From an uncultured Pseudomonadota bacterium (GTDB lineage: Bacteria; Pseudomonadota; Alphaproteobacteria; Acetobacterales; Acetobacteraceae): 24,000 bases of DNA. Each line of letters starts with the position of its first letter. Position 1 is the stretch's first letter. The position numbers and the translations under genes were made by a program. The notes below the pieces were generated by a model. That model was not told where the DNA came from and did no database searches. It worked only from the letters and a program-made list of their open reading frames with translations. Below, in pieces: positions 1 through 20,324 of this stretch. Where the stretch lies: positions 279,906-303,905 of the forward strand of contig CAWFTU010000024.1 in NCBI GenBank assembly GCA_963818725.1, read 5' to 3'.

Positions 1-353
1 GCGTGCGCACGTTCCTTGGCGGCTCTGGCAACACGGAGACAGGATGTCGACGGAAGGCCATGCGAACGCCGATTTAGCCTATCCGGTGGCTGCCCACGGT
101 TGCCTCCCGTATTCCTTTGCAACCGCGGTCTGCGGTCTCGATTTCAATAGCATCAAGCACAATGAGGTATTGCGCAAGCGCAAACTCACGCGCGAAACTG
201 CTGCGGGTCCGCGCCTGCGGCCGTCGGGTCGAGCACCGCAGGACCGTCCAGACCTTGACTTTGATCATGTCAACCACCTTGTAAGCCTCGATCGACCAGT
301 TGGAACGTCTCCAGCGGATTCATCGAGCTCTGCATTCCATGCAGGAGAGACAT

Positions 354-727
354 ATGTTCCTTACACATGCGAGATATCTCGGCCGAGCCTGACGCTGCCG
401 ATTGCCTGCCTGGGCTTGGCACTTGGGCTTGGGGGCGCTGCGTACGCGCAGCAGCAGCAACCCCGCAATCCAGCTCATAACACCGCCAGATGTAGTCAGA
501 AATCGGATTCGGAGCAGTTGGGCAACGCCGACCAACTTCCGTCGCAGCGGGCTGATCAGGAGCAGGCGGGCTCCGGCTCGTCCTACAAGCCGCAACGGAC
601 GCAGGGCTTGCCGCCAGGATTGTACGCGCAAGCGCAACCGCATCCGACTTTCCCGCAGGATCAATCGCGGACGGCTTCAAACGGGCGCTCTGGCGCCGCG
701 TCTTCGACCAACGGCCCCTGCGGCTAA
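354..727 (+). CDS. Candidate small secreted Gln/Pro-rich protein; start unresolved, possibly frameshifted near 378-383
   Basis: The 3' part of track ORF 44-727 encodes a Sec-signal-like segment (SRPSLTLPIACLGLALGLGGAAYA then QQQQ, with an A-x-A cleavage motif) followed by a low-complexity Q/P/S-rich tail. Third-codon positions there are mostly G/C. No in-frame ATG/GTG lies near the signal segment. A strong AGGAG (343-347) plus ATG (354) sits in a different frame and opens only a 12-codon ORF (MFLTHARYLGRA, stop 390-392). A GC-rich hairpin follows the stop at 745-775. No family recognised. Confidence 0.25.
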
Positions 728-5689: not shown

Positions 5690-5724
5690 GCGGCGCTCCC
5701 GAGGGAGGTGGCGACGAGGCCGCC

Positions 5725-6987
5725 TCAGTTGGCGGCTGGCTTGCCGGCGGGTTTCGACTGGGTGCTGATCGTCACCGCGGGTGGCTTCATATCAGGAGGC
5801 TGCGGAGCGGCCGGCGTGCTCTCAACCGCCTTGATCTCGCCCGGCTGCGGCTGGACCGTGGCGCCTGGGCGAACAAATGGATTTGCCAGGCCACCGATGA
5901 TCACCTTGTCGTTCGCCGCGAGGCCGCCCGTCACCGCGCGCAGCCCGAGTGCGATACCAGCAGGCGTGATCGTCTTCGGGACCACCTTGTTGTCGGAGGA
6001 GAGCGTGTACAGGATCTTTTGCGCCTGGTCGGATACGATCGCGGCGTCTGGCACGAGCAGCACGTCCTCGTAGCCACCGAACAGGCGCAATCGCCCGAAC
6101 GTTCCCGGCGCGAAGAAGTAGTCCTTGTTGTCGAACACGGCGCGGCCGCGGATCGTGCCCGAGCGGGCATTCACCTCGTTGTCCACGAAGTTCATATGGC
6201 CCGTGTGGGTCCATTCCGCCTCATCGGCAAGCCGCACCTGAACCGGGTTCTGGGTGTCCCGCGAGGAGTGGCGCTGACCACTGGCGTTCAGGCGGGCGTA
6301 GCGGATGTAGTCGGCCTCCGAGCCCTCAAACACGAAGTGGATCGGATCAAGGCTGACAATGGTAGTCAGCAGGGTGGCGTCTCCGGTGCCGGAGACCAGA
6401 TTGCCGACATCCACCTTACGATCGGAGATGCGGCCAGGGATCGGGGCGACAACGCGGGTCCACTCCAGGTTCAGTTCGGCGTTACGCAGCGACGCCTCAG
6501 CCGACATCTCCTGGGCTCGGTCGACCTCCAGGGTGGCCCGGCGCTGGTCCAGGTCGCGCGCTGTCGTGGTCGCCGTCTTGACCAGTTCCTGGGCCCGCGC
6601 GAAGTCGACCGTGGCCTGATGCACCTGAGCCTGGGTGCGCACCACGTCCGCGCGGGCCTGCTCAACCGCGATCTCGTAAGGGCGCGGATCGATGGTGAAC
6701 AGCAGATCGCCCTTCGCCACGATCGCCCCATCCGTGAAATGGATCTGGGCGATGTAGCCTGAGACACGCGGCCGCACCTCCACGCGCTGCACCGCCTCGA
6801 ACCGCCCCGTGAACTCGTCCCACTGGACAATGCGCCGCGCGAGCGGAGCGGCGACGGTGACGACAGGTGCCGGCGGGCCGCCCTGCGCGGCCGCGCCATC
6901 CGGCCACGCAAGCAGAGCGAGGGCGAAGGCGGCCAATGAAGCGGACAGCCAAGCGGCCGTACGGCACGGCGCAGGGCGCATTCTCAT
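5725..6987 (-). CDS. RND efflux periplasmic adaptor (membrane fusion protein, AcrA/MexA-like)
   Basis: Signal-like N-terminus (MRMRPAPCRTAAWLSASLAAFALALLAWPDGAAA). Lipoyl/hairpin motifs VRPRVSGYIAQIHFTDGAIVAKGDLLFTIDPRPYE, a coiled-coil segment, beta-barrel and MP domains, and a Pro/Ala/Lys-rich tail. Track ORF starts at 7014, but ATG 6987 has AAGGAG 6 nt upstream, so it is preferred. Confidence 0.9.
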   Translation of the reverse strand: MRMRPAPCRTAAWLSASLAAFALALLAWPDGAAAQGGPPAPVVTVAAPLARRIVQWDEFTGRFEAVQRVEVRPRVSGYIAQIHFTDGAIVAKGDLLFTIDPRPYEIAVEQARADVVRTQAQVHQATVDFARAQELVKTATTTARDLDQRRATLEVDRAQEMSAEASLRNAELNLEWTRVVAPIPGRISDRKVDVGNLVSGTGDATLLTTIVSLDPIHFVFEGSEADYIRYARLNASGQRHSSRDTQNPVQVRLADEAEWTHTGHMNFVDNEVNARSGTIRGRAVFDNKDYFFAPGTFGRLRLFGGYEDVLLVPDAAIVSDQAQKILYTLSSDNKVVPKTITPAGIALGLRAVTGGLAANDKVIIGGLANPFVRPGATVQPQPGEIKAVESTPAAPQPPDMKPPAVTISTQSKPAGKPAAN

Positions 6988-7157
6988 GGACTGCTCCTTC
7001 CCGTTCAATTGCATCGCAAACGGGCGGCGTCAAACGGGAGGCACTCGCCTCCGTGGGTCAGGCGGATACTGCATCACGAATTTGATTTCTTGCAAGTGCT
7101 TCGCCACCTAGCCAGTTGTCCGGGGGAAGACGCGTGATCCGCCGATCTTCAGATTTC

Positions 7158-7865: not shown

Positions 7866-8633
7866 CTACTCCCCAAGCGCCCGGATCAGGGCCTCGGCGG
7901 TCTCCATGCCGGAAAAATTCTGCTGTTCGGTGAGCAGGTTGCCGTCGCGGACCGCGAAGCCGCGCCACAGTCCCGCCTGGACATAGTTGGCGCCGATGCG
8001 CCGCATCTCATCCTCGATGCGCCAGGGCATTACGTTCCTGTTGCGCGGCAGCAGACCCATGCTCCAGACCGCGTTGTCCGCGAACGCCTCCTCCACATTG
8101 GCGAAACCAGTGACCGTCTTGCCGGCCGCCAGATAGCTTCCGTCGGACAGCTTCGCATAGCGGAGGATGGCGACCCCGTGGCACAGCGCCGCGGCGAGCT
8201 TCCCCGCCTCGTAGAACGCCACGAATGTCCGGTGCAGCCCGGTGGCGGTTTCCAATCTAAACATCGGCGCCTAGCCGCCAGCGACCATGATCGCGTCGAA
8301 ACGGTCCAACACGATCTCGGACACGGGCTTCGTGCTCTCGACCAGCGCGGCAAGGTTCGGCGTCGCGATGAACCCCATGCTGATGAGGTCGGAGGACGAG
8401 TAGCCGGACGCGTCGCGCGGGTCGCTCATCGCGTCGGCCTCGCACCGGCCGCCGGCGGGGCTGAATACCTCGACCTCATAGCCCTTCTCGGTGAGCGCGA
8501 AGTAGGGGTGCGTCAGCTCGCTCCACCAGAAGCCGACTGGCCAGCCGGTCGTGGTCGAGACCGCCGGGTTGGAGATCACGATGGCGACGCGTTTGGGCCG
8601 CTTGGCGACGGGATTGGCGTCCTTGAGGCTCAT
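7866..8633 (-). pseudogene. Hsp31/DJ-1/PfpI-type class-I glutamine-amidotransferase-fold protein, interrupted by an in-frame TAG at 8271-8273
   Basis: N-terminal half is MSLKDANPVAKRPKRVAIVISNPAV...GWPVGFWWSELTHPYFALTEKGYEVEVFSPAGG...DAIMVAGG. Then comes TAG, then in the same frame APMFRLETATGLHRTFVAFYEAGKLAAALCHGVAIL (nucleophile-elbow Cys-His)...TGFANVEE...LLTEQQNFSG. Frame continuity was checked base by base: GGC GGC TAG GCG CCG ATG. ATG 8633 overlaps the upstream gene's TGA (ATGA). Confidence 0.8.
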
Positions 8634-9247
8634 GGAGACCAGCCCTTGCGCTGCAAAGAGAAGGCGAAGTTGGAGCCGAGTCCCCGCTTGCGGGCCAGTT
8701 CGATCCAAAGCATGGCTAAAGGTTCGAGCAGCCGCGCGGCACGCAGGCCGCCGGCGTCGACCGCCTCGAACCCGGCATCGCCGATCAAGCTGAGCACTAC
8801 GCGCTTGCCCGCCTCGTCGTCGCCGGCAACGAACATCACCGGCCGGGAGGGATAGGCACGGGCATCCGCCATGTTCTCGAATCCGGTCTGGTTGAAGGCC
8901 TTGAACACGCGCGCCTGCGGCGCCAGCGCAGCGACTTGCTCGGCGCCGGATGTCTCGAATCCCATCGTCAGCGCCAGTCCCGTCTCGCCCATGCCGAGCG
9001 GATTGGTCGCATCGACGAGAATCGTGCCGGCGAAGCCCGAGGCCGCCGCGACAACGTCCCTTACGGCGTTGAACGGAACGGCCAGGATGGTCGCGTCGGC
9101 CGAGGCGACCGCCTCGGCGATGGCGCGCTCCTGGGGGTTGCCGGCCTCGGGCGCCCGCACCCCGAACGTCACCTGGTGTCCGGCGCGTCCAAGCGCCTGA
9201 GCCAGCGCTCCGCCAACGTTGCCGGAGCCGATGATCGCGATACGCAT
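8630..9247 (-). CDS. NADP oxidoreductase, F420-oxidoreductase fold (NADPH-dependent F420 reductase-like / ProC-like Rossmann protein)
   Basis: N-terminal Rossmann motif MRIAIIGSGNVGGALAQALGRAGHQVTFGVR, then ILAVPFNAV and VDATNP motifs typical of the F420_oxidored family. The track start at 9253 is a TTG. ATG 9247 has GGAGG 8 nt upstream. Its stop overlaps the start of the downstream Hsp31-like gene. Confidence 0.85.
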   Translation of the reverse strand: MRIAIIGSGNVGGALAQALGRAGHQVTFGVRAPEAGNPQERAIAEAVASADATILAVPFNAVRDVVAAASGFAGTILVDATNPLGMGETGLALTMGFETSGAEQVAALAPQARVFKAFNQTGFENMADARAYPSRPVMFVAGDDEAGKRVVLSLIGDAGFEAVDAGGLRAARLLEPLAMLWIELARKRGLGSNFAFSLQRKGWSP

Positions 9248-9450
9248 TGGCAAGGCCTCCGTACCCGGTTCGGTGAAGTGTCAGGCTCATGATATGATGG
9301 CAATTGAAGTCCACGGATTGAAATCGCCTCATGGCCAGGTTCGATGACGCTCAACCTCGCCGGCGCGATCTTACTTTATGGCCGGCAACCCTCTCTTGTT
9401 CCCGCGTTCTGAGTGCTTAGGTTGCCTCTCAGGCTCGTTTTAGCGGGCTG

Positions 9451-10305
9451 ATGGGGGCCAGCATGGACACTGATGTTGGAACGACCACGTTGCCCGGCGT
9501 GGAAGCAAGCCTTGTTTATCTCGCGCCGATGGCCGAGCGTCCGTACAATCTCACCTATGAGCCGCCGCCCGGCACGCCCCGCACCAACGTGGTGCAGGAA
9601 GCGCACCGGGTGAAGATCAGCGACGCCCGGCCTATCACTGACGAATTGAGCCTGGATCGCGAGGGTTTTGCCCTGGTGCGGCGCCACAGCGCCGTGCGCG
9701 ACTTTTATGACGAGGACGAGCTGCGCCGGGTCTACTATCCAGAAGCCGAGCAACTTGTTGCCCAAGCAACCGGGGCCTCAAGGGTGATCGTGTTCGACCA
9801 CACGATCCGGCGGCGCGTCTGGGGCTCGGAGGACCGCAGCGCCGGCACGCCGCGCCAGCCGGTTAGCCGCGTCCACAACGATTACACCGAGATCTCGGCG
9901 CCGCAGCGCATTCGCGACTTGATGGGCGAGGAAGCCGAGGCGCTGCTCCAGCGCCGCTATGAATTCATCAACGTGTGGCGACCGATCCGTGGCCCGCTCC
10001 GGGACTCGCCGCTCGCGATGTGCGATGCCCGCAGCCTCGCGCCCACAGATCTGGTCGCCTCTGACCTGGTGTACCGCGACCGCAAGGGTGAGACGTACGC
10101 TGTGCTCTACAACCCGGCGCATCGCTGGTTCTATGTGCCCGACATGCAGCCCGACGAGGCGTTGCTGCTGAAATGCTTCGATTCGGCGCGCGACGGCCGT
10201 GCGCGGCTGTCTCCGCACGGGGCATTCGTCGATCCAACGGCGCCGGCCGACATCTTGCCACGCGAGAGCATCGAGCTGCGCACGATTGCCTTCCACGCGG
10301 CGTGA
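9451..10305 (+). CDS. CmcJ/NvfI-family oxidoreductase (AsaB-like hydroxylase/desaturase family)
   Basis: Motifs match my memory of this family: LVYLAP...RPYNLTYEPPPGTPRTN...HRVKISDARP, VIVFDHTIRRR, VHNDYT, FINVWRPI, PLAMCDARS, YNPAHRWFYVPDMQPDEALLLKCFDS and RESIELRTIAF. Alternative start is ATG 9463. Confidence 0.8.
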   Translation: MGASMDTDVGTTTLPGVEASLVYLAPMAERPYNLTYEPPPGTPRTNVVQEAHRVKISDARPITDELSLDREGFALVRRHSAVRDFYDEDELRRVYYPEAEQLVAQATGASRVIVFDHTIRRRVWGSEDRSAGTPRQPVSRVHNDYTEISAPQRIRDLMGEEAEALLQRRYEFINVWRPIRGPLRDSPLAMCDARSLAPTDLVASDLVYRDRKGETYAVLYNPAHRWFYVPDMQPDEALLLKCFDSARDGRARLSPHGAFVDPTAPADILPRESIELRTIAFHAA

Positions 10306-10412
10306 TTCATGTCACCTGCCGGCTCCGTCTCGGCGAGTTGAGGAGAGTTTGCCGGCGCGGGAGAGTGCTCGCGAAGCACGCGCAGCACGGTTTATACCGC
10401 TGGCCGAATCTG

Positions 10413-10625
10413 CTCCACGACGACCGTTCGCCTTTTCCCGTCGATTTCGATCTCGGCCTCGTCTTCCGCCCGCAGCCCGAGAATCGCCACGGCGAGAGGA
10501 GAGGTTGGAGCGATCCGGGTGCGCCCATCCGCCAACCCGTCCGCCACGATCCGCAGCATGAGCGATCGCGCTCTACCGTCTGCATAGCGCACCACCACGG
10601 TATCACCCACTTCTATCCGCCTGAC
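10413..10625 (-). other. GreA/GreB C-terminal-like (Rnk-like, FKBP-type fold) domain at the extreme C-terminus of the helicase-nuclease gene
   Basis: VRRIEVGDTVVVRYADGRARSLMLRIVADGLADGRTRIAPTSPLAVAILGLRAEDEAEIEIDGKRRTVVVEQI. This follows the Gre C-terminal pattern V-x-x-G-[ST]-x-V ... IV-x-x-x-[ED]A[DN] ... I[SA]-x-x-SP[LI][GA]-x-A[LI]LG-x-x-x-x-[DE]-x-[VI]-x-[VI]. Recognised by eye only. Confidence 0.55.
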
Positions 10626-10832
10626 GGCGGGGGAAGAGATGCCGCCTGACTCCCACTGTTCAAACAGCGGCATCGCTCCGACGGCCGGAGTTGCTGCCGC
10701 CTGCTGGTTCGCTTCGGCGCGATGGCGAACGGCGCGGAACTCCACCGGCATCGGATCGCCGCCGGAAACGGTGCCGATAGGCGTGATGCCGTGGCGCTCC
10801 AGCGTCGCGACAAGGTCGCGGAACGTCGCCTC

Positions 10833-11093
10833 CTTGTCGGCCTCCCACTCCGAGGCCCAGCACCGCCAGAATGTCCACCCGACCCGCTCCAGCGCCTTCT
10901 GCCGATTCACGTCCTGCGCCCAGCGGTCCGGGCCGTGGAATGCGTCCCCGTCCAGTTCCACGGCGAGGCGGCGATCGTCGGCGCCTTCGATCACGAAGTC
11001 GATTTTGTACCCGCCTGTCGGAACCTGCGCGCGCAGCCGATAGCCCGCCTTCAGGAGACGCGCGCCGACGTCGCGCTCGAAGCCGGAGTCGCA
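10833..11093 (-). other. DUF559 / Vsr-fold (REase_MTES_1575-like) endonuclease domain of the helicase gene
   Basis: CDSGFERDVGARLLKAGYRLRAQVPTGGYKIDFVIEGADDRRLAVELDGDAFHGPDRWAQDVNRQKALERVGWTFWRCWASEW. This follows the E...(I)D...E-x-D-G...H...D..R...L...GW...R.W pattern of this PD-(D/E)xK-related domain, which is commonly found C-terminal to large SF1 helicases. Confidence 0.75.
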
Positions 11094-11229
11094 CGCGGCC
11101 AAGACATCGTCGCCTTGGCCGATCCGCCCGCCCGCCATTGGGTTTTGGAAATGCCGCAACACGTCCAGCTTGATGTCGCCCTCCTTCAGCATCGACAGCG
11201 TGACCGAACGGACCAGAACCATGCGGTCC

Positions 11230-11242
11230 CGCGCGCGCGCGC
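11230..11242. repeat. Alternating CG dinucleotide run (13 nt) at the helicase frameshift site
   Basis: Plus strand 11230-11242 reads cgcgcgcgcgcgc, flanked by ccc and cac. It encodes Ala-Arg-Ala-Arg in both reading frames that meet here. Confidence 0.9.
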
Positions 11243-14200
11243 CACGTTATAGCGCTGCTCGTACAGTCGGCTCGATTGCTTCGACGCCGTCGCCTCGTCG
11301 TGGACCATAGACAGGAACATGATATCACGCTCCTGGCCCTGGAAGGTGGCGGCATCGCCGCACATGATGCGATGGTCGCTCATAGCCTCGGGACCGACGG
11401 CCTGGATGAGCCGGTCGTAAATCAGCTTGGCCTGCTTGTCAGCGTGCAGCGATATCACGCCGATGCTGCGCTTGCGGGAGGCGTTCAGCACCGGATCGGC
11501 GATGGCGCGCTTGATTTCCTCGACGATCACCTCGGCCTCGGGCTCGTTCACGTTGCCCCGCCGCGTCCCGTCCTTGACGAGGATATCCACAAGTGGCGGG
11601 TCAATGCGCTCGCTCGGCTTCGGCAGGCGGAGCGGCACCAGACGGCCGTCATAGAAGCGGGAGGAGAAGCGGATGATCGGCTCGACGCAGCGGAAGTGCT
11701 CGCGCAGGACGACCACCCTCCCCGGATACATCATGCCGCCCACCTCATAGAGCGATGTCGCCGGGTCGATCTGCTGCGCCAAGGGTTGGCCCACGAGGTA
11801 CGTATTGCGCAGCCGGCTGATGGCAGCGTCCTCGATGCCCACCGCGACCGGGCTCACCTGCCGGTCGTCGCCGACAATGAGCAGCTTCTTCCCGCGCAGC
11901 ACGACCGGCAGCGCCAGGATGTTCGACTGGCTCGCCTCGTCGATGATGACGAGGTCGAAGCCGCCCAGCTCCGGCGGAAGCTGCTCGGCAACCCGCCATT
12001 CCGGCATGATCCAGCAGGGAATCGCCTTCACGGCGCGTTGCAGGCTGTCGCGCAGGATGCGCCTCTGCCGGACCGCCGTGACGGCACCCGCCGTCTTCGG
12101 CAATTGCGCGAGGGCCGAGAGGAACTGCCGCAGCGCCGCCTGCACGTTCTCCGTCAACCGGGGGTGCAGCCCAAGGTAGGTCAGCGCCTCGATCGCTTCT
12201 AGGAAGTGCCGCTCCCGCGAGGCCGTCAGTTCGGCGTGCTCGTTGGTCAGCGCTTGGACCACGGCGCGGTTGGCGACGCGGGCCAGGAAGCCTGCCGCGC
12301 GCGCGTAGTCCCAGGCGTCGCGCCAGTGCGCGGGAAGGATGGACGTGTCGTCGGTGTCCGGCACAAGCTCGATTCGCGCCGCCCATTCCTCCGCGCCGCT
12401 GTCGCGAACGAGGGCCGCCAGCGCCGACAGCCTGCGGAGGTCGTCGCGTCGCCCGGCCAAGCGATCGGCCTCGGCCTGGATGTCGCGCCAACCCGCGGCG
12501 ATCTCGGCATCGTCGATGCCCCGCGTGCCAAGCGCCTCCGTCATCTGCCGAAGCGCCGCGCCCAGGTCTCCGCCGGCCCGGTCGCCGGCTTCACGAAGCC
12601 CGCCGCGCAGCCGCTCTGCCTCCGCCGCGTCCGCCTCTCCCAGGTTGGCCCGAAGCGAGTCGACGGCCACCGAGACCTCGATCCGCAACACAACCAAGTC
12701 GGCTTCCAGCCCGTAGGGGAACAGCGCCCGCAGCCGCGCCAGCCGAGCCTGGGCCTGGTTCAGCAGGGTCAGCATCTCGAAGGCCGGCTTGCCGAGGGCG
12801 CTCAGAGCCCCGCGCGCCGCCGCCGCATGGTCCTCGGGCAGCCGCGTCAGGCCATGCTGCGCGGCGAATGCGTTCCATCGGGCGACGAAGCCGCGCGCCT
12901 CCCGGCGCCATGCATGAAGCTCGGCCAGCTTCGCCCAGGAGGCCGCGTCGCGCGGCGGTTCGGCAGCGATCCGGGCTGCCTCGATCGCATCCTTGATCGG
13001 GCTGCGCCGGAAGCCCTCGAAGAAGCCAAATGGCCGTCGGCCGGCCGCGAGGTTCTCGAGCGCCTGGCCCAGCCCATCCGAGTGTGGGATGTCCGGCAGT
13101 TCCAACGCGTGCAGCGCGAGCGTGTCGCCCTGCTCGGCGAGTCGCGCCGCTTCCGCCAGCATCGGACGCAAGCCCTCGGCGTCGAGCCGCCCCCAGGGAC
13201 GCCCCTCTGCCAGCGCCTCCCAGGCCGCCGTCATCCAGGCATGATTGAGGCAGCCGTCCCGCCAGGACGCCAGCCGCTCCAGCCACGCGAGCAGCTCCGC
13301 CAGCTCGCCCGGCTTGGCCGCCGAGAGGTCTGGGCGAGGCAGACTGCCCTCGCGTTCCTGTAGCCGCCGCTCCGCCGCACCGCGCAGGACACGGTGCGCC
13401 GCGACCACGGCGCCAAGGCTGGGCAGGGCCTCCGATCCCCCGGGAAGATCATCGGCGCGGTAGCGTATGTCCTCGCCAACCCGGCTTCGCAGCGCGCGGG
13501 CCTCGGTGATCTCGGCTTCCCCGAAGCGCGGCTCGTACCGGAGCGTGAGATCGAGCCTGTCGGGAAACCAGGCGTGACGCTGGCCCTGGGCGGCGGCCCA
13601 CGCGGCGATTTCTTGCGGCAGGGCACTGGCGCCGCGCCAAGGAACCTTCGTCAGATTCGCGCGCGCCACGGCCGTCAGCTCGGCGTCGATCTCGGCGAGA
13701 CGCGCATCCGCCTGGGTGATGGCGCGAAGCAGATCCTCGGCCCGCCGCTCGGTTTGCCATGGGTTGATGGACTGCGCCCGCTCCGCGAGCGCTGACACCG
13801 CTGCCTCCAACTGCCGCGCGCCCTCACGGTCGCTGTGCGTCACCGCGATCGCTAGGTTGCGCAGCGCGGGCGGCAGCTTCTCGCGGATCGCGCTGAGCGC
13901 CTCGGCTGTATGGGCGGCGACGAGGACGCGGCGCCCCTTTGCCATCGAGTGCCCGATGACGTTGGCAATGGTGTGCGTCTTGCCGGTACCAGGCGGCCCC
14001 TGCACCACCACACCATGCACGTCTTTCTGCTCCAGCCGGCGGGCGAGTTCCTCCTGCTCCTCATTGGCGGGAAGAGGAAAGAAGAGCCACTCGCGACGCG
14101 CCTCGCGACGTTCGTCGCCAGAGGCGCCGATCCAGCCGCCGGGCGTTGTCCCGGACGCGGAGCTAATCAGGCGATCTGGGTCGAACGGCGTGCCGTCGTC

Positions 14201-15448
14201 GGGCGCCACATCCGGCGGCGGCACAACGAAGCGGCGGGCCGTTTCCGGCAACGATGTTGCATCCTGTTTCACGATCTCGGACAATCGGCCGATGTCGTCG
14301 CGCAGCACGTCACTGCGGCGAGGGCGGACGATCACGCAGAGGCTGGGACTGATGCGCAGCCATTCCCCCGCCGGTCCCAGCTCCTCACCGGGCGCCAGCA
14401 CCGCGCCGCTGGCACCCAGGTGCGCGGCGCAGGTCTCGAGCACCTCGCGAAAGCTGGCCGGATGACACGGGCCGAAAGGCCGATTCGGATCCCTGGCGAT
14501 GTCCTCCAGCCGCCTCGCCAAGTCGCGCTGCAAACGCGACGCGGCGTTGATGCCAAGGTCCAGAAAAGGATGCAGCGCGGGCGTGGGCGGCACGCTGCGC
14601 GGCAGGATCGCCAGCGTGCCGTTTGACTCGTCCAGCTCGAACTCGGCGCGCTGCTCGATCAACGGCACGTTCACGCGCTGGCCGTTATAGTTCCAGCGCG
14701 CGAGTCCAAGGCCGACCACGAGTTCCTGTCCGCCCTCGCCGCCCGCCGCCGCGATCTGCGCCTGGGCCTTGTACAGCACCTCGTAGAGCTTGATCGCCTC
14801 GCGCCTGGGCGCTTCTTCGATCGCCCACGCCTGCCAAGGCCCTGCCGTGTAGGATGCCAGTGCCTCGACGATTTCCAGCAAGTCCGCCGGGCGGAGTGGC
14901 ACGGCCCATTGCTCGGCCTCTCCGGAGGTGCCGGGCACACGGGCGATCGCATCGGCGGTGGCGAGGCCGACTTCGATCAGGTCCGTCGCCTCCTCGGGCG
15001 TGATCCGCACGACCCGCTCGGCCAGGAGAACGGGAGGCTTGGCCGGCGTGGGACGCGCCTCCGGCCTCAACCAAGGCTCAAGCCGCGCGCCAGGCTGAGG
15101 CGGGGGCTGCTCCTGAAGGCGCGCGAACGACAGCCACACGTCTTCCGCCGGGCCGATAGTGACGCCGGGCAGCGGGTCGCCGTTCTTTCCCCGTAAATCC
15201 GACTCCGTCAGGTGGATCGGATAATCCACGATATCGAAGATGACCCGATCGCGCGTGGCCAGGAGTTGTTCGGTAAACTGGAGGAGGTTTCGAAGGTCTT
15301 CGCGGACCTGGGCATCCTCGGGCGCAAGTCTGTCATCGGGCATCGCGGCGCTGGTTGCCTCCGGGCGGATCGCAGCGAAGATGCCCTGTTTCGAACCGGA
15401 ATTGAAAGCGAATGTTGCGGGAGCGTTTTCCTGCCCTGTAACCCTCCC

Positions 15449-18400
15449 CTACTCGGCTGGCGACCCGATCCCGCCCGGCGTCTCCGCAGCCCGCGCTTGG
15501 TCGCCGCCCAACGCGCGGCGGGACAGCCGGCCCGCGACGCGCGAGAGGTCGCCCATCACCGTGTAGAATGACGGCACGAACACCAGTGACAGGGCGGTGG
15601 AGACGAGCAGGCCGCCGATCACGCCGATCGCCATCGGGGCGCGGAACTCGCCGCCATCGCCCAGGCCCAGCGCGCTCGGCACCATGCCGGCCACCATCGC
15701 GATCGTCGTCATGACGATCGGCCGCGCCCGCTTGCGCCCGGCGTCCACCACCGCCTCGCGCGCCGCCACGCCGCGCCGCTCCCCCTCCGCCGCGAAGTCC
15801 ACGAGCATGATCGCGTTCTTCGTCACCACCCCCATCAGCATCAGGATGCCGATGACGACCGGCATGCTGATCGGGTTGCCGGTCACGAGCAGCGCGAGGA
15901 TCACGCCGCCCAGCGAGAGCGGCAGGGAGAACAGGATGGTCAGCGGCTGGAACACGTCGCCCAGCAGCAGCACCAGCACCGCGAGCACCAGCATCAGCCC
16001 CGCGCCCATGGCGGTGGCGAAGCTGCCGAACACCTCGGCCATGATCTCGGCGTCGCCCCCGTCGCGCAGCCGCACGCCGGCCGGCAGGGCCTGCGCCGCC
16101 GGCAGCGCGTGAACCCGCGCGGTCGCCGCGCCGAGCGGAAGGCCGGGGGCGAGGTCCGCTCCGATCGTGACCTGGCGCGCGCGGTCGAAGCGCTCGATCG
16201 AGGACGGCCCGGTGCCGAAGCCGATATCGGCCACCGCCAGCAGCGGCACCGCCTGTCCCATCGCGCCGGTAACCGGCAGGGTTCCGAGCGCGCCGAGGTC
16301 GGCGCGGGCGCCGGTCGCCACCTGCACCCGGATCGGCACCAGCCGCTCGCCCAGCTTCAGCTTGGCCAGCTCCGCCTCGGCGTCGCCGATGGTCGCGACC
16401 CGCACCGCCTCTGAAATGGCCTGTGTCGAAACCCCGAGCCGGGCGGCGTCATCCAGGCGCGGCGTGACCAGCAGCTCCGGCCGAGGCACCCCGGCGCTGG
16501 CAGCGACATTGGAGAAGCCCGGGAGGTGGCGCATCGCCGCCTCAAGTGCCGCGACTGCCTGATCGAGTGCCGCCGGATCGTCACTGAGCAGGCCGACCGT
16601 CAGCTCCCGCTCGCCGCGATCGTTCACGAACCAGCCGCGCAGGTCGGGAATCGCCGCGAGGCGGCGCGTGACCTCGCCCTCGATCTGCTTCTGTTTCCGC
16701 GCACGCGCGCTCTTCGGCACAAGCTCGACGACCATGGCCGCGCGGCGCACCTCCTTGCCCTCGCCGGTCGGCGTCGTGCCGCCCGTGACGAGGACGTGCC
16801 GGACCTCCGGGATGGCGCGGAAGGACCGCGCGGCGGCGTCGATGCGCGCGCGCGTGTCCTCGAGGGTCGAGCCGGGCGGCAGCTCCAGCGAGACCACGAT
16901 GCGGCTCTCATCGCCGGGCGGAATGAAACCGGTCGGCAGCAGCGTGGTGGACCAGATCGACAGGCCGAACAGCGCAAGGCCCGCGAACACCGTCACCCAG
17001 CGCCAGGCCAGCGTGGCCCGCAGGAAGCGCGCGTAGAGCCGCGTGACCCATCCCTCGCGCGCGACGTGCTGTCGATGGGGGCGAAGCAGGTAGGCGGCCA
17101 TCAGCGGCGTCAGCAGCCGGGCGACGAGCAGGGAGGCGAGCACCGCCGCCGCGGCCGTCAGGCCGAACTGCTTGAAGTACTGCCCGGCGATCCCGCCCAT
17201 GAAGCTTACTGGCGCGAACACCGCGACGATCGTGAGCGTGATCGCCACCACGGTCAGGCCGATCTCGTCCGCCGCCTCGATCGCCGCCCGCCAGGCGCCC
17301 TTGCCCATCGGGATGTGGCGGACGATGTTCTCGATCTCCACGCTCGCGTCGTCCACCAGGATGCCGACAACGAGCGTGATCGCGAGCAAACTCACGAAGT
17401 TGAGCGAGAACCCCATCGCGCTCATCGCGAAGAACGCCGGGATGATCGACAGGGGCAGGGCCACGGCGGCGAGCAGCGTCGCCCGCCAGTCGCGCAGGAA
17501 CAGCAGCACGACCAGCACGGCCAGCGCCCCGCCCTCCAGCAGGGCGTGCATCGCGGAGAGATAGCTCCCCTGGCTCGCGCGCACGCCGTCGTCGATGAGC
17601 GCGAAGCCCACATCCGGGTGCGCCTGGTGCAGCGCCGCGACGCGCGCGGCAACGCGCCGGGCCACGTCCACGTCGCTCGCGCCCTTGGCGCGGTAGATCG
17701 CGAAGGCGACGATCGGCGTGTCGCCGTCGAGTCGGGCGAAGCCGCGCGGCTCCTCGACGGTGTCGCTCACCGCGCCAAGGTCGGCGAGCCGCACCTCCCG
17801 CCCGCCTGGCAGCACGATGCGGGCGTCGCGCAGCGCCGCCACGCTCCCGGCCTGGGCCAGGGTGCGGATCGCCTGCTCCTGTCCGCCCACCTCGCCCCGG
17901 CCGCCCGCGAGGTCCACGTTGGTGTCGCGCAGTTGCCGGCTGACGTCGCCCGCCGTGATGCCGAGGGCGGCGAGCCGGTCCGGGTCGAGCGCCACCCGGA
18001 TCTCGCGGGTGACGCCGCCGATCCGCTCCACGCGCCCGACGCCGGGCGCGGCTTGCAGGTCGCGCAGCACGGTGTCGTCCACGAACCATGAGAGCTGCTC
18101 CGGCGTCATGCCGGGCGCGGTCGCGGCGAAGGTCTGGATGCTCTGGCCGACCACGTCGACGCGCTCGATCACCGGCTCGTCGATGCCGCGCGGCAGATCG
18201 GCGCGGATCTTGGCGATGGCGTCCTTGACGTCGTTCAGGGCGCGGTCGGAGCTGACCTCCAGGCGCAGCTCGATGATCGTGCTCGAGAGCCCGTCGGTGA
18301 TGGTGGAAGAGACGTGCTTGACGCCCGCGACATCGGCGACGGCGTCCTCCACCCGCTTCGTCACCTGAGTCTCCAGCTCGGCGGGTGCGGCCCCCGGCTC

Positions 18401-18556
18401 GGTCACGGTCACGGAGACGATCGGGATGTCCACGTTGGGCGCGCGGGTGATCGGCAGCACGTGGAAGGCGAACAGGCCGAGCACGGTCAGCACCGCGAAG
18501 AGCACGAGCGGCGGGATCGGATGACGGACGGCCCAGCCGGAGACGTTGAGCGCCAC
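15449..18556 (-). CDS. RND efflux pump, inner-membrane permease (AcrB/AcrD/AcrF family, divergent from pump 1)
   Basis: 1035-codon ORF. MALNVSGWAVRHPIPPLVLFAVLTVLGLFAFHVLPITRAPNVDIPIVSVTVTEPGAAPAELETQVTKRVEDAV; proton-relay region GILVDDASVEIENIVRHI; 12-TM layout. The start is a GTG at 18556, 5 nt after the adaptor's TAG (18562-18564). Confidence 0.95.
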   Translation of the reverse strand: MALNVSGWAVRHPIPPLVLFAVLTVLGLFAFHVLPITRAPNVDIPIVSVTVTEPGAAPAELETQVTKRVEDAVADVAGVKHVSSTITDGLSSTIIELRLEVSSDRALNDVKDAIAKIRADLPRGIDEPVIERVDVVGQSIQTFAATAPGMTPEQLSWFVDDTVLRDLQAAPGVGRVERIGGVTREIRVALDPDRLAALGITAGDVSRQLRDTNVDLAGGRGEVGGQEQAIRTLAQAGSVAALRDARIVLPGGREVRLADLGAVSDTVEEPRGFARLDGDTPIVAFAIYRAKGASDVDVARRVAARVAALHQAHPDVGFALIDDGVRASQGSYLSAMHALLEGGALAVLVVLLFLRDWRATLLAAVALPLSIIPAFFAMSAMGFSLNFVSLLAITLVVGILVDDASVEIENIVRHIPMGKGAWRAAIEAADEIGLTVVAITLTIVAVFAPVSFMGGIAGQYFKQFGLTAAAAVLASLLVARLLTPLMAAYLLRPHRQHVAREGWVTRLYARFLRATLAWRWVTVFAGLALFGLSIWSTTLLPTGFIPPGDESRIVVSLELPPGSTLEDTRARIDAAARSFRAIPEVRHVLVTGGTTPTGEGKEVRRAAMVVELVPKSARARKQKQIEGEVTRRLAAIPDLRGWFVNDRGERELTVGLLSDDPAALDQAVAALEAAMRHLPGFSNVAASAGVPRPELLVTPRLDDAARLGVSTQAISEAVRVATIGDAEAELAKLKLGERLVPIRVQVATGARADLGALGTLPVTGAMGQAVPLLAVADIGFGTGPSSIERFDRARQVTIGADLAPGLPLGAATARVHALPAAQALPAGVRLRDGGDAEIMAEVFGSFATAMGAGLMLVLAVLVLLLGDVFQPLTILFSLPLSLGGVILALLVTGNPISMPVVIGILMLMGVVTKNAIMLVDFAAEGERRGVAAREAVVDAGRKRARPIVMTTIAMVAGMVPSALGLGDGGEFRAPMAIGVIGGLLVSTALSLVFVPSFYTVMGDLSRVAGRLSRRALGGDQARAAETPGGIGSPAE

Positions 18557-18561
18557 GGCGC

Positions 18562-19710
18562 CTAGCTCGACGGCACGGCCGAGACGCGGTCGCCGTCGCG
18601 CACGAAGCTGCCCGAGACGGCGACGACGGATTCGCCCGGTGCCAGCCCCGCCGTGATCTCGACCTGGCCCTCGGCGCGCAGTCCGGTCTGGACCGGGCGC
18701 GTCATGACCGTGCCGCCAGAGACGACCTGGACACGCGCGCCCGCCGGCCCGAACAACACGGCCGAGAGCGGCACGGTCACGCCGTCGCGCCGCCCGGTTT
18801 CGACCTTGCCCCGCGCGTAGCTGCCGATCGTGAGCCCCTTTGAATCATCGAGCGCGATCCGCACCCGGCCGAGACGGGTCACGGGGTCAATCTCGGGCGC
18901 GACAAGGCGGACATGTCCGGCCCGCTGGCCCAGCCCCGCAGGCAGGATGGTCGCGGGCTGGCCCGGACGGAGGCGGGCCAACAGAATCTCGGGCACCTGC
19001 GCGTTCAGCTCCACGGCACCATCGGCGACGATCCGGAACAGCGGATCGCTCGTGGCACCGACCACGGCGCCGAGGCGGGCCGTGCGGCGGCTGATCCGGC
19101 CGGCAACGGGCGCGCGCAACGCGGTGCGGGCGATCCGCACCGTCAGCTCGTCGCGCTGGGCGAGCGCGAGCGCGCGGTCGGCCTCGGCGGCGCGCAGCGC
19201 GGCGTCCGCGCTCGCCACCTTGGCGTCGGCGACGTCAGCAGCCATGCGGCGCTGCTCGAACGTCTCGCGCGAGTTGGCGCCGGGGCCAACCAGCGCGCGG
19301 GCACGGACCAGGGCAGCCTCGGCTTGCACCCGGCTTGCCTCGGCCTCGGCGGCCGCGCCCTGCGCCTCGGCGATCGCCGCCTGGGCGCGGGCGATCTGGG
19401 CGGTGTTCTGGGCCAGCGCCGTGTCGAGCTGCTCGCGCGAGAGCCGGGCGAGCACCTGCCCGGCGGCGACCGTGTCGCCCTCCTCGGCCAGGATCGCCGT
19501 CATCGCGAGGCCGTCCACCTGCGGCGTGACCAGCGCCTCCTCCCGCGGGACGAGCGTGCCGGTGAGGCTGAGCCAGTCCGCGAGGACGCCACGCCCGGCG
19601 GCCACGACAGTCACGGCGGGCGGGCGCGGCCCCTCCTCCACCGGGGCCGCCGCGAAGGTCGGCCCCGCCAGGAGCACGAGAAGCAGGGCGAGAGCATCGG
19701 GCCGTCTCAC
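18562..19710 (-). CDS. RND efflux periplasmic adaptor (membrane fusion protein)
   Basis: Signal-like VRRPDALALLLVLLAGPTFAAAP, lipoyl motif LVTPQVDGLAMTAILAEEGDTVAAGQVLARL, an Ala-rich coiled-coil hairpin, and beta-barrel/MP domains. Track ORF extends to 19851 but would overlap the tetR gene by 145 nt. The in-frame GTG at 19710 overlaps the tetR TGA (GTGA) and has GGGGAG 9 nt upstream, so it is preferred. Confidence 0.85.
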   Translation of the reverse strand: MRRPDALALLLVLLAGPTFAAAPVEEGPRPPAVTVVAAGRGVLADWLSLTGTLVPREEALVTPQVDGLAMTAILAEEGDTVAAGQVLARLSREQLDTALAQNTAQIARAQAAIAEAQGAAAEAEASRVQAEAALVRARALVGPGANSRETFEQRRMAADVADAKVASADAALRAAEADRALALAQRDELTVRIARTALRAPVAGRISRRTARLGAVVGATSDPLFRIVADGAVELNAQVPEILLARLRPGQPATILPAGLGQRAGHVRLVAPEIDPVTRLGRVRIALDDSKGLTIGSYARGKVETGRRDGVTVPLSAVLFGPAGARVQVVSGGTVMTRPVQTGLRAEGQVEITAGLAPGESVVAVSGSFVRDGDRVSAVPSS

Positions 19711-20324
19711 GCGCCGGCACTCCCCGAGGGGGGACGGAAGAAGCGAAGCAGCAAGGCGCGCAGCACCGGACGCAGCCGCTCCGGGTCGAGCGGCGGGCCG
19801 AACGCCTGGTGCGCGCACAACCCGTCGCCGAGCGCCATCACCACTTGGCACGCGGTCGCGACGTCAAGATCAGGATCAACCAAGCCCGTTGCCTGACCAC
19901 GCCGGAGCGCGGCCGTCACCGCAGCGCGCGCCTCGGCGGCATTGCGCTCAAACATTGCGCGCACGGCGGGGTTGCGCGTGGCCTCCGCGATCGTCTCGGC
20001 GAGAAGCGCGCGGCCGGTATCGGCCAGCACGGTCTCCAGCGTAGCGATGCCAATGGAGGCGAGCGCCTCGACCGGGTCGTCCGCCTCGGCCAGCCGGGCA
20101 AAGAACGCCGCGTGGCGTTCGCGCTCGGCCTCGGCGATGGCGGCGATGATGGATTCCTTGGAGGGAAAATAGCGGTAGAGCGCGCCGGCGCTCATGCCCG
20201 CCTCGGCGCAGATCTCGCCCATGCTGGCGCCGTGAAAGCCCGAGCGGGCGAAACAGGTGATCGCCGCGTCCAGGATGCGCGCGCGCTGTTGCCCGGCCGC
20301 CGACCTCGTCCTGCCCTCGCTCAT
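19707..20324 (-). CDS. TetR/AcrR-family transcriptional regulator, first cistron of efflux operon 2
   Basis: N-terminal HTH: ARILDAAITCFARSGFHGASMGEICAEAGMSAGALYRYFPSKESII. About 200 aa with an all-helical C-terminal ligand domain. ATG 20324 is preceded by AAGGAGG with a 7-nt spacer. Confidence 0.9.
   Translation of the reverse strand: MSEGRTRSAAGQQRARILDAAITCFARSGFHGASMGEICAEAGMSAGALYRYFPSKESIIAAIAEAERERHAAFFARLAEADDPVEALASIGIATLETVLADTGRALLAETIAEATRNPAVRAMFERNAAEARAAVTAALRRGQATGLVDPDLDVATACQVVMALGDGLCAHQAFGPPLDPERLRPVLRALLLRFFRPPSGSAGA

What the first reader, a model, noticed from the sequence alone, without database searches (positions are those of the whole stretch)
10392..15343. Giant helicase-nuclease with a Gre-factor-like tail: candidate single-gene nucleic-acid surveillance/defence module
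Read as one gene, the two overlapping minus-strand ORFs give a ~1,650-aa protein. In order it has: (i) ~440 aa with no motif I recognise; (ii) a Upf1/DNA2-like SF1B helicase core (GPPGTGKT, DEASQ, GDDRQVSP, LREHFRC, FQGQERD, NVA-RAR); (iii) a ~610-aa helical insertion inside the helicase; (iv) a DUF559/Vsr-fold nuclease; (v) a GreA/GreB-C-like terminal domain. As I recall, a single polypeptide with helicase plus Vsr-type nuclease is the architecture of the Hhe antiphage gene (Gao et al. 2020) and of DUF4011/DUF3320-type proteins. The very large insert and the Gre-like tail are not part of those descriptions as far as I know. The gene is functionally unrelated to its neighbours (efflux, oxidoreductases). 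It is convergent with the CmcJ-like gene and has its own 105-bp upstream region. This is the best candidate in the window for an undescribed or variant system.
Basis: partly seen in the sequence, partly recalled or inferred. Interest (0 to 1): 0.8.

Follow-up and report, generated by a model that had tools for sequence, protein, structure and literature searches.

The report
Broken Hhe-like helicase-nuclease with Gre tail
This is a frameshifted copy of a roughly 1,650-residue helicase-nuclease from a large, horizontally spread and unstudied family that is related to known single-gene antiphage proteins (Hhe, ProA) but ends in the RNA-polymerase-docking domain of Gre transcription factors.

Summary
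Two minus-strand ORFs (11186-15343 and 10392-11222) are the halves of one gene. HMM and structure tests confirm an SF1B Upf1/Sen1/DNA2-like helicase, a Vsr-fold MTES_1575 nuclease and a Gre-factor C-terminal domain.

The gene is broken here. Every one of the 43 fetched loci in which motif VI could be located reads NVA[LAMV/S]SRA[RK]. The window lacks 4 nt there, which removes Leu-Ser and shifts the frame. This is probably a recent pseudogene; an assembly error is possible.

Intact single-polypeptide homologues of 1,640-1,700 aa are numerous. The N-terminal domain alone matches 1,835 clusters at 50% identity. They occur patchily across at least six phyla and on plasmids. They share no synteny and have no conserved partner gene. 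Several sit beside or inside mobile elements, toxin-antitoxin pairs, restriction-modification genes or TIR genes.

The family belongs to the Hhe / ProA / PDC-S37 superfamily but is not a member of any of these: 164-199 bits against cut-offs of 1,500-2,000, no DUF4011 and no DUF3320.

The large helical insertion is not new; it aligns colinearly with ProA. The Gre-C tail is typical of this family and swaps with other tails.

Best reading: a single-gene defence or surveillance enzyme whose tail docks it on RNA polymerase. Function is inferred, not shown.

The parts
15344..15448 (-). 105-bp upstream intergenic region, with a GGAGG about 12 nt before the ATG
   Evidence: Sequence read. No sigma-70-like promoter was found by the consensus scan.
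14159..15343 (-). Family-specific N-terminal alpha/beta domain (residues 1-395); no known family or fold. Proposed sensor or regulatory module.
   Evidence: AlphaFold pLDDT 87.3. No significant PDB match: best E 0.011, probability 0.13. No Pfam hit in 19 members. The profile finds 1,835 50%-identity clusters; in the best 150 listed hits of ~1,500-1,900 aa the domain mostly lies at the N-terminus.
13709..14068 (-). Helicase RecA-like domain 1A, first part, with Walker A GPPGTGKT at 13976-13999
   Evidence: Pfam AAA_11 residues 427-541, AAA_30 and AAA_19. Motif coordinates.
12080..13708 (-). Conserved helical insertion of about 545 aa (residues ~546-1088) between Walker A and Walker B
   Evidence: The AAA_11 match is split. 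59 columns are conserved at >=90%. The region aligns colinearly with the ProA profile. Its structure was not modelled.
11234..12079 (-). Rest of helicase domain 1A and domain 2A: DEASQ 11927-11941, GDDRQVSP 11849-11872, LREHFRC 11687-11707, FQGQERD 11324-11344
   Evidence: Pfam AAA_12 residues 1204-1371. Motif coordinates. PDB profile hits to Sen1, Upf1, IGHMBP2 and DNA2.
11231..11242 (-). Lesion: a (GC)6 run left by a 4-nt deletion in helicase motif VI. NVA-LS-RARDR has become NVA-RAR followed by a frameshift.
   Evidence: Homologues read NVALSRARDRMVLVRSV. All 43 loci in which motif VI was found carry NVA.SRA[RK]. Restoring 4 nt (e.g. TGTC) recreates GCG CTG TCG CGC. tblastn shows the frame change -3 to -2 at residues 1370/1373.
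10800..11081 (-). Vsr-fold PD-(D/E)xK endonuclease (MTES_1575/DUF559): KIDFVIEG 10983-11006, VELDGDAFHGP 10929-10961, RQKALERVGWTFWRCW 10857-10904
   Evidence: Pfam MTES_1575 4.4e-29 and DUF559 1.5e-10. All family-invariant residues are present. Foldseek matches 3hrl and 3r3p.
10632..10775 (-). Poorly conserved linker, predicted disordered
   Evidence: pLDDT below 50 at ORF2 residues 154-157 and 170-197. Lowest conservation of all regions.
10395..10625 (-). Gre-factor C-terminal-domain-like tail (ORF2 residues 200-276), with SPLAVAILG at 10476-10502; stop codon at 10392-10394
   Evidence: Pfam GreA_GreB 31.5 bits, above the 26.9 cut-off. Family profile against PDB sequences: GreA E 0.0014, Rnk 0.01. 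Foldseek top 13 hits are Gre, Gfh1 and Rnk, probability 1.00.

Best explanation
**What it is (shown).** The locus is a frameshift-disrupted copy of one gene. In intact relatives that gene encodes a polypeptide of about 1,650 aa. In order it has:
1. a family-specific N-terminal domain;
2. a Upf1/Sen1/DNA2-like SF1B motor split by a conserved helical insertion of about 545 aa;
3. a Vsr-fold MTES_1575 endonuclease;
4. a disordered linker;
5. a Gre-factor C-terminal domain.

The family is a distinct branch of the superfamily that holds the single-gene antiphage proteins Hhe, ProA and PADLOC candidate PDC-S37. It is accessory, horizontally mobile and stand-alone.

**How it most likely works (inferred).** The protein is a one-gene nucleic-acid surveillance or defence enzyme.
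- The Gre-C tail docks it on the beta' rim helices at the RNA-polymerase secondary channel. This is what that domain does in GreA, GreB, Gfh1 and Rnk.
- The 5'->3' motor translocates on single-stranded DNA or RNA near transcription complexes.
- The N-terminal domain and the insertion gate the enzyme.
- The Vsr-type nuclease cuts once a foreign or aberrant substrate or state is met.
- Other family members replace Gre-C with DUF3320/wHTH or other tails. The tail is therefore an exchangeable targeting module.

**State in this window.** The 4-nt deletion destroys motif VI and uncouples the nuclease and tail from the motor. The gene is most likely non-functional.
For: **Architecture.**

**Single polypeptide in relatives.** One search lists more than 100 proteins of 1,640-1,700 aa that cover 99-100% of the repaired query.

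**Lesion.**

**Superfamily relation without membership.**

**Accessory and mobile.**
- None of 12 window neighbours is syntenic in 47 loci; only two weak unrelated hits.
- Hosts range from Acetobacteraceae and Azospirillum to Verrucomicrobiota, Planctomycetota, Chloroflexota and Clostridium.
- Full-length copies lie on a Microvirga megaplasmid and on a contig titled 'plasmid unnamed2' of Azospirillum sp. 412522.
- One copy sits inside an ICE trb operon next to type I R-M and HipA.
- Other copies lie next to TacA/GNAT plus FitA/PIN pairs, two TIR proteins, IS110/IS256, and a prophage-like terminase and recombinase.

**Stand-alone.** No family recurs in more than 3 of 104 nearest neighbours. About 8 of the 104 hit PADLOC models.

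**Tail modularity.**

**Gre-C role.** The globular domain of Gre factors binds the beta' rim helices, and GreA S121P weakens binding (PMC7527559). The family keeps the matching I[SA]xxSPL[AG]xA[IL]LG motif.
Against: - No member of this family has been tested, so a defence role rests on homology and context only.
- Many contexts are housekeeping, including Rhodospirillum rubrum and this window.
- The enrichment for defence genes is modest and was not tested statistically.
- RNAP binding by the tail is inferred from fold and motif alone.
- The tail lacks the Gre N-terminal coiled coil.
- The tail profile also gives weak S1-repeat matches.
- The insertion's structure was not modelled.
- The mechanism of Hhe itself is unknown (10.1101/2024.10.10.617714).
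- The frameshift could be an assembly artefact.
Confidence: 0.55

Rival explanations
1. **Housekeeping factor.** The protein would be a transcription-coupled genome-maintenance factor rather than immunity. It would be an RNAP-docked Sen1/HelD/Mfd-like motor that removes stalled polymerases or R-loops and nicks DNA for repair.
For: - The Gre-C fold is confirmed.
- The closest solved helicases are Sen1, Upf1 and IGHMBP2.
- HelD is a precedent for an SF1-like NTPase that uses a Gre-like element on RNAP (PMC7749165 and 10.1101/2020.07.20.211821, listed).
- Several loci have only housekeeping neighbours.
Against: - The phyletic distribution is patchy and there is no synteny even within Acetobacteraceae.
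- Copies occur on plasmids, in an ICE, beside IS elements and beside TA pairs.
- The tail is exchangeable.
- The closest named relatives are antiphage proteins.
- The copy in this genome is disrupted, so the gene is dispensable here.
Confidence: 0.2
2. **Assembly artefact.** The frameshift would be an assembly or base-calling error, and the genome would really encode an intact 1,650-aa protein.
For: - Both halves keep every family-invariant residue and have no other lesion.
- Identity to P0002 is similar on both sides of the break: 77% and 73%.
- Several related loci, including several 'MFD' metagenome bins, also show frame changes. The three junctions inspected (L008, L010, L018) lie at short single-base runs, which is typical of sequencing error.
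Against: - The lesion here is a 4-nt loss that removes two codons' worth of a non-repetitive motif (CTG TCG). It is not a homopolymer slip.
- The same truncated 1,385-aa product is what the public record carries (P0001).
Confidence: 0.25
3. **Working two-gene system.** The split would be functional: a helicase (ORF1) plus a separately translated nuclease-Gre protein (ORF2). This would resemble helicase and effector pairs such as CnuH/CnuE.
For: - ORF2 begins with an in-frame ATG, the conserved Met of RDRMVLV.
- Related helicase families do use separate effector proteins (PMC10542128).
Against: - ORF1 loses the conserved Ser of motif VI and the following core strand MVLVRSV of domain 2A. It ends in 14 out-of-frame residues.
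- No Shine-Dalgarno sequence precedes the ORF2 ATG.
- Apart from frame changes in nine loci (L008, L010, L018, L020, L023, L027, L034, L035, L039), which look like lesions or sequencing errors, the homologues are fused.
Confidence: 0.05
4. **Selfish mobile unit.** The gene would itself be mobile, inserting by means of its own Vsr-type nuclease in a homing-like way.
For: - In two unrelated loci the gene sits tightly inside an operon. In one it lies between TrbG and a 161-aa VirB4 N-terminal fragment. In the other it lies between a 95-aa DctM fragment and a second dctQM.
- The nuclease fold matches the homing endonuclease I-Bth0305I.
Against: - There are no terminal repeats or target duplications around the window copy.
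- The dctQM repeat flanking the gene in L056 is only 88% identical. That points to import by recombination with donor DNA rather than to fresh target duplication.
- There is no recombinase or transposase domain.
- A 5-kb helicase is unnecessary for homing.
Confidence: 0.05

Closest known systems
Hhe (Gao et al. 2020 single-gene antiphage helicase-nuclease; NCBIfam NF042953, PADLOC PDLC02194)
   Same: - One polypeptide with an SF1B AAA_11/AAA_12 motor followed by an MTES_1575 Vsr-fold nuclease and a C-terminal adaptor domain.
- The HMMs align over the second half of the helicase and the nuclease.
- Some members of the present family even carry Hhe's DUF3320 tail (P0058).
   Different: - Scores 164 bits against a cut-off of 2,000.
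- The N-terminal domain is not DUF4011.
- The tail is Gre-C instead of DUF3320/wHTH.
- Hhe has been tested against phages; this family has not.
ProA (NCBIfam NF058533 'anti-phage protein ProA'; source paper not found in the library)
   Same: Best-scoring named family. It is colinear from Walker A through the insertion to the nuclease (420-1517 against 644-1705 of 1,903).
   Different: - Scores 199 bits against a cut-off of 1,500.
- ProA's ~640-position N-terminal region and its ~200-position tail are not matched.
PADLOC candidate PDC-S37
   Same: Best PADLOC hit: 199 bits for the intact homologue, covering part of the insertion, the helicase and the nuclease.
   Different: - Only profile positions ~720-1340 of 1,550 are matched.
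- The DUF3320-tailed variant P0058 matches to the end of the profile, so PDC-S37 appears to have that tail rather than Gre-C.
- PDC-S37 is a candidate only, and no paper was found.
CoCoNuT type III-B CnuH-Vsr (Bell et al., PMC10542128 / PMC11090510)
   Same: A Upf1-like SF1 helicase with a large helical insertion after Walker A, fused directly to a Vsr-like nuclease.
   Different: - CnuH works with McrB/McrC-like CnuB/CnuC encoded next to it. No such partner recurs here.
- No Gre-C tail is described for CnuH.
Gre factors, Gfh1 and Rnk
   Same: The tail has the fold and signature motif of their C-terminal globular domain, which binds the beta' rim helices.
   Different: There is no N-terminal coiled coil with an acidic tip. 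The tail therefore cannot stimulate transcript cleavage and is at most a docking module.
HelD (RNAP-recycling SF1-like NTPase of Gram-positive bacteria)
   Same: An SF1-type NTPase that carries a Gre-derived element to engage the RNAP secondary channel (PMC7749165, abstract).
   Different: - HelD uses a Gre-like N-terminal coiled-coil arm and has no nuclease.
- Here only the Gre C-domain is present, at the far C-terminus, after a Vsr nuclease.
- No sequence relationship was tested.
MTES_1575 protein of Microbacterium testaceum (Anantharaman et al. 2013, PMC3710099)
   Same: It combines an SF1 helicase with the same Vsr REase family, described in the context of conflict systems.
   Different: That protein adds transglutaminase and HEPN domains and two wHTH (DUF3320) domains. 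None of these is present here.

Membership tests
Upf1/DNA2-like SF1B helicases (Pfam AAA_11 + AAA_12) | Both Pfam domains score above gathering cut-off, and motifs I, II, III, IV, V and VI are present | tested here: met
   AAA_11 65.5 bits and AAA_12 41 bits against cut-offs of 27. Motifs located. Profile hits to Sen1, Upf1, IGHMBP2 and DNA2. Motif VI is intact in homologues but broken by the 4-nt deletion in the window.
Hhe | Score at or above the NCBIfam equivalog cut-off (2,000 bits) | tested here: not met
   103.7 + 41.5 bits for the two window ORFs. 164.5 bits for the intact homologue P0002.
Hhe | DUF4011 N-terminal region | tested here: not met
   No DUF4011 hit at E<=0.1 in ORF1, nor at E<=1 in 19 N-terminal domains.
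Hhe | DUF3320 (wHTH) C-terminal tail | tested here: not met
   The tail is Gre-C. DUF3320 occurs only in a minority of family members such as P0058.
Hhe | Helicase and Vsr-fold nuclease in one polypeptide, acting as a stand-alone gene | tested here: met
   Intact homologues are single polypeptides. There is no recurrent neighbour. In the window itself the two parts are separated by the frameshift.
ProA (NF058533) | Score at or above the equivalog cut-off (1,500 bits), with end-to-end coverage | tested here: not met
   129 + 54 bits for the window ORFs. 199 bits for P0002, covering profile positions 644-1705 of 1,903 only.
PADLOC PDC-S37 | Full-length match to the PDC-S37 HMM | tested here: inconclusive
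   199 bits; the best stretch covers 720-1340 of 1,550. The tool gives no curated cut-off. The N-terminus and the tail are not covered.
MTES_1575 / Vsr-fold PD-(D/E)xK nucleases | Pfam score above cut-off, Vsr-like fold, and conserved D...ExD...H / RQxxLExxGW residues | tested here: met
   100.8 bits against 38.2. Foldseek 3hrl TM 0.71 and 3r3p TM 0.80 on the target. All family-invariant residues are present in ORF2. Catalysis was not tested.
Gre factors (GreA/GreB) | C-terminal globular domain | tested here: met
   PF01272 31.5 bits against 26.9. Profile against GreA 1grj gives E 0.0014. Foldseek top 13 hits have probability 1.00.
Gre factors (GreA/GreB) | N-terminal antiparallel coiled coil with acidic tip residues that reach the RNAP active site | tested here: not met
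   The ~50 residues before the tail are predicted disordered and poorly conserved. There is no GreA_GreB_N Pfam hit.
Gre factors (GreA/GreB) | Binding to the RNAP beta' rim helices | not testable with these tools
   Only the motif I[SA]xxSPL[AG]xA[IL]LG is seen to be kept. Binding needs a pull-down or a co-structure.
CoCoNuT type III-B | CnuH-Vsr encoded next to McrB-like CnuB and McrC-like CnuC | tested here: not met
   No AAA_5/McrB or McrC family appears among the 25 most frequent Pfam families listed for the 104 nearest neighbours, none of which recurs in more than 3, nor in the annotated contexts.
Mokosh (MkoA/MkoC) | Full-length match to the MkoA or MkoC helicase, with a PLD-type nuclease | tested here: not met
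   Only the C-terminal helicase half matches (80-117 bits). No PLD domain was found in Pfam.

The most novel reading that the evidence does not exclude
Intact members of this family are immune or surveillance enzymes that ride on RNA polymerase. The Gre-C tail competes with Gre, DksA and Rnk for the secondary-channel rim. From that position a Sen1/Upf1-like motor and a Vsr nuclease inspect and cut the DNA or RNA of transcription complexes, for example on phage genomes, on phage-modified RNAP, or at R-loops. This would be a previously undescribed way of coupling bacterial immunity to the host transcription machinery. The exchangeable tails (Gre-C, DUF3320, others) would define where each variant patrols.
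Probability: 0.3. Interest if true: 0.75.

Novelty: new variant of a known kind. Interest (0 to 1): 0.5.

Why it matters
How Hhe-type single-gene helicase-nucleases sense infection is still unknown.

This sister family is large. Its unique N-terminal domain alone defines 1,835 clusters at 50% identity. It spans many phyla, including Akkermansia-related MAGs and plant-associated Azospirillum. No curated model names it as of NCBIfam release 20.

Its usual tail is a domain with one well-understood job: docking on the RNA-polymerase secondary channel. This gives a concrete, testable idea for how such enzymes are targeted.

The natural tail swaps (Gre-C, DUF3320, others) provide a ready-made comparison set.

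For this particular genome the finding is modest, because the copy is broken.

Tried and rejected
**Look-ups and searches that returned nothing.**
- The window's own contig and a neighbour protein were looked up to test presence or absence at this locus. Neither was on record.
- The window's genome was not among the genome-contig hits, so empty-site comparison was impossible.
- Literature searches for ProA, PDC-S37 and any helicase-Vsr-Gre fusion found nothing relevant.
- There are no Rfam families in the window and no promoter-like site upstream.
- Phage genomes hold no real relative.

**Ideas rejected.**
- Membership of Hhe, ProA, Mokosh or CoCoNuT III-B was rejected because defining features were not met.
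- A conserved partner gene was rejected.
- Phase variation at the (GC)6 run was rejected. The run is itself the product of the deletion and is absent from all homologues.
- Terminal repeats or a transposon structure around the window gene were rejected.

Full report
**1. Observation.**
The two minus-strand ORFs are real: 11186..15343 (1,385 aa) and 10392..11222 (276 aa). They overlap at AACGTG-(GC)6-GGGACCGC-ATG.

Pfam places the expected domains, all above gathering cut-offs:
- AAA_11, AAA_30 and AAA_19 at residues 427-541;
- AAA_12 at residues 1204-1371;
- in ORF2, MTES_1575 (4.4e-29), DUF559 and GreA_GreB C-terminal (31.5 bits against 26.9).

The window has 64-76% G+C and shows no compositional break at the gene.

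**2. The junction is a lesion in a catalytic motif.**
Close homologues read ...EQRYNVALSRARDRMVLVRSV... as one chain. In all 43 related loci where the motif could be located it is NVA[LAMV/S]SRA[RK].

The window reads GCG C|G CGC GCG CGG GAC. This is exactly the homologous GCG CTG TCG CGC GCG CGG GAC minus 4 nt. The loss removes Leu-Ser of motif VI and shifts the frame. ORF1 therefore ends after 14 out-of-frame residues, and the rest of domain 2A, the nuclease and the tail fall into ORF2.

Both halves otherwise keep every family-invariant residue. Their identity to P0002 is similar, at 77% and 73%. The event is therefore recent, or it is an assembly error.

Frame changes in other loci, including several 'MFD' metagenome bins, were also seen. 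The three junctions inspected (L008, L010, L018) lie at short single-base runs. The window's 4-nt loss in a non-repetitive motif looks different. I put about 25% on an artefact.

**3. The family.**
A search with the repaired protein found more than 2,000 relatives. More than 100 listed proteins of 1,640-1,700 aa cover 99-100% of the query at 39-76% identity. Most carry the same precomputed Pfam set, often including PF01272. Some are auto-named 'very-short-patch-repair endonuclease/transcription elongation GreA/GreB family factor'.

Sixty-five of 68 aligned members have the Gre-like tail, whether or not Pfam flagged it.

The N-terminal 395 residues form a confident alpha/beta model (pLDDT 87.3). 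It has no PDB fold match (best E 0.011, probability 0.13) and no Pfam family, DUF4011 included. Its profile hits 1,835 cluster representatives at 50% identity (909 at E<=1e-10). Among the 150 best listed hits, those of ~1,500-1,900 aa mostly carry the domain at the N-terminus.

The insertion between Walker A (residue 449) and Walker B (residue 1135) is about 545 aa. It is rich in Ala, Leu, Arg and Glu and is as conserved as the N-terminal domain, with 59 near-invariant columns.

**4. Domain tests by structure.**
The ORF2 model has pLDDT above 90 in two globular parts. They are joined by a disordered linker at residues 154-197.

Foldseek against PDB gives GreA, Gfh1, a Nitrosomonas GreA/GreB protein, Rnk and GreB as the 13 best matches. 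Probability is 1.00, E runs from 2e-5 to 1.6e-3, and rmsd is about 2.2-2.8 A over 70-77 aligned columns in the tightest matches. The next matches are the DUF559 protein 3hrl and the Vsr-like homing endonuclease I-Bth0305I.

A profile of 26 tails hits E. coli GreA residues 85-143 (E 0.0014) and Rnk (0.01). It aligns the family motif I[SA]xxSPL[AG]xA[IL]LG with GreA LISVNSPIARGLIG.

The globular domain of Gre factors binds the beta' rim helices, and GreA S121P weakens binding (PMC7527559). There is no Gre N-terminal coiled coil, so the tail can dock but cannot act as a cleavage factor.

The full-length profile's best solved relatives are Sen1, Upf1, IGHMBP2 and DNA2.

**5. Relation to named systems.**
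The window ORFs and the intact homologue P0002 hit ProA, Hhe, PDC-S37 and the Mokosh helicases, but far below curated cut-offs:
- ProA: 199 bits against 1,500;
- Hhe: 164 bits against 2,000.

The ProA alignment runs in one stretch from Walker A through the insertion to the nuclease (420-1517 against 644-1705). The large insertion is therefore a shared superfamily trait. The CoCoNuT paper likewise describes a large helical insertion after Walker A in Upf1-like CnuH helicases, and a direct Vsr fusion in type III-B (PMC10542128).

DUF3320, Hhe's tail, overlaps a wHTH (PMC3710099). A minority of the present family carries it (P0058, P0061). Others have Gre-C plus a further domain (P0042, P0049), that further domain alone (R. 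rubrum P0040), or yet another tail (P0013, P0014). The tail is therefore a modular adaptor.

No paper on ProA, PDC-S37 or a helicase-Vsr-Gre fusion was found. Hhe's own mechanism is still open; T7 class II genes 1.4-2 and 2.8 are proposed as indirect triggers.

**6. Genomic setting.**
The window's neighbours are two RND efflux operons, an HtrA-like protease, a TMEM175-like channel and a MetE-like gene. None is a mobile-element or defence gene.

None of 12 window neighbours is conserved next to the gene in 47 related loci.

Hosts include:
- Acetobacteraceae;
- Azospirillum, including a contig titled 'plasmid unnamed2' of Azospirillum sp. 412522;
- Methylocaldum and Zobellella;
- Pirellulales and Planctomycetaceae;
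- Verrucomicrobiota, including Akkermansia-related MAGs;
- Caldilineaceae and Desulfobacterales;
- more distantly, Clostridium.

Annotated contexts vary:
- TacA/GNAT and FitA/PIN pairs on both sides;
- inside an ICE trb operon beside type I R-M and HipA;
- beside a prophage-like terminase, ParB-methylase and recombinase;
- beside two TIR proteins;
- beside IS110 and IS256;
- inside a TRAP-transporter operon;
- plain housekeeping surroundings in R. rubrum.

Among the 104 nearest ORFs of 26 loci no Pfam family recurs more than three times. About eight hit PADLOC models: RmrA, mad3, mad8, AriA, PDC-S03/S04 and SoFic.

Relatives occur in 102 plasmid records. Four of these are near full-length. None occurs in phages.

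This is the pattern of an accessory, horizontally moving, stand-alone gene with a moderate association to mobile and defence DNA. It is not the pattern of a syntenic core repair gene.

**7. Mechanism.**
*Shown:* the domain composition, the conservation of catalytic residues, the stand-alone and mobile distribution, and the lesion in the window.

*Inferred:*
- The SF1B motor translocates 5'->3' on single strands, as its solved relatives do.
- The Vsr-fold nuclease is the effector.
- The N-terminal domain and the insertion regulate or sense.
- The Gre-C tail recruits the enzyme to RNA polymerase.

The main rival is a housekeeping transcription-coupled role (about 0.2).

**8. Verdict.**
The locus is a correctly read but disrupted copy of an uncharacterised sister family of Hhe and ProA. 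Its novelty is that of a variant: a new N-terminal domain and a Gre-C adaptor on a known chassis. The interest lies in the family and its testable RNAP-docking hypothesis rather than in this broken locus.

Noticed in passing
L051:9392-15449 and L052: A 65%-identical homologue (P0009) lies in opposite orientation exactly between TrbG/CagX and a 161-aa VirB4/TrbE N-terminal fragment of an ICE trb operon. It seems to replace trbE-trbF. A type I R-M system, HipA and DUF3037 lie 3-10 kb away.
   Followed up: partly
L056:7088-7387 and 13229-13528 (also L057): The homologue P0096 is flanked by a direct repeat of at least 300 nt, at only 88% identity. The repeat covers dctQ and the start of dctM, leaving a 95-aa DctM fragment upstream. 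This looks like import with donor flanking DNA rather than target-site duplication.
   Followed up: partly
L008, L010, L018, L020, L023, L027, L035, L039: About nine of some 35 near-full-length loci show frame changes within the gene. The three junctions inspected (L008, L010, L018) lie at single-base runs, and several affected loci are 'MFD' metagenome bins. Two are isolate genomes (Falsiroseomonas sp. E2-1-a4 and Chenggangzhangella methanolivorans). It is unclear how many are real pseudogenes.
   Followed up: partly
P0040, P0042, P0049, P0013, P0014, P0058, P0061 (C-terminal 170-430 residues): The C-terminal tail is modular within the family. Variants are Gre-C alone; Gre-C plus an extra '...GAWLQEAL...LNAWIHWYVRR...' domain; that extra domain alone (Rhodospirillum rubrum); DUF3320; and another unassigned tail. 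The extra domains were not identified.
   Followed up: partly
plasmid hits H14-H30 (Acinetobacter; Klebsiella in the organism summary): Acinetobacter plasmids (24 records, with 24 Klebsiella records in the organism summary) encode 'AAA domain-containing proteins' that match from residue ~418 onward (helicase, insertion and nuclease) but lack this family's N-terminal domain.
   Followed up: no
L007:15848-24430 and L053:13437-18719: Very large ORFs without precomputed domains (2,860 aa and 1,760 aa) lie immediately downstream of the homologue, in a Methylocaldum sp. GT1BB record (titled 'plasmid unnamed', 5.3 Mb) and in an Azospirillaceae metagenome contig.
   Followed up: no
window 9451-10305 (+), 8271-9332 (-), 44-727 (+): These three long ORFs gave no Pfam family at E<=1e-5.
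   Followed up: no
window 2468-7014 and 15449-19851: Two separate RND efflux pairs (an AcrB-type pump plus a HlyD-type membrane-fusion protein), both on the minus strand, bracket the region. The helicase-nuclease gene lies directly downstream of the second pair.
   Followed up: no
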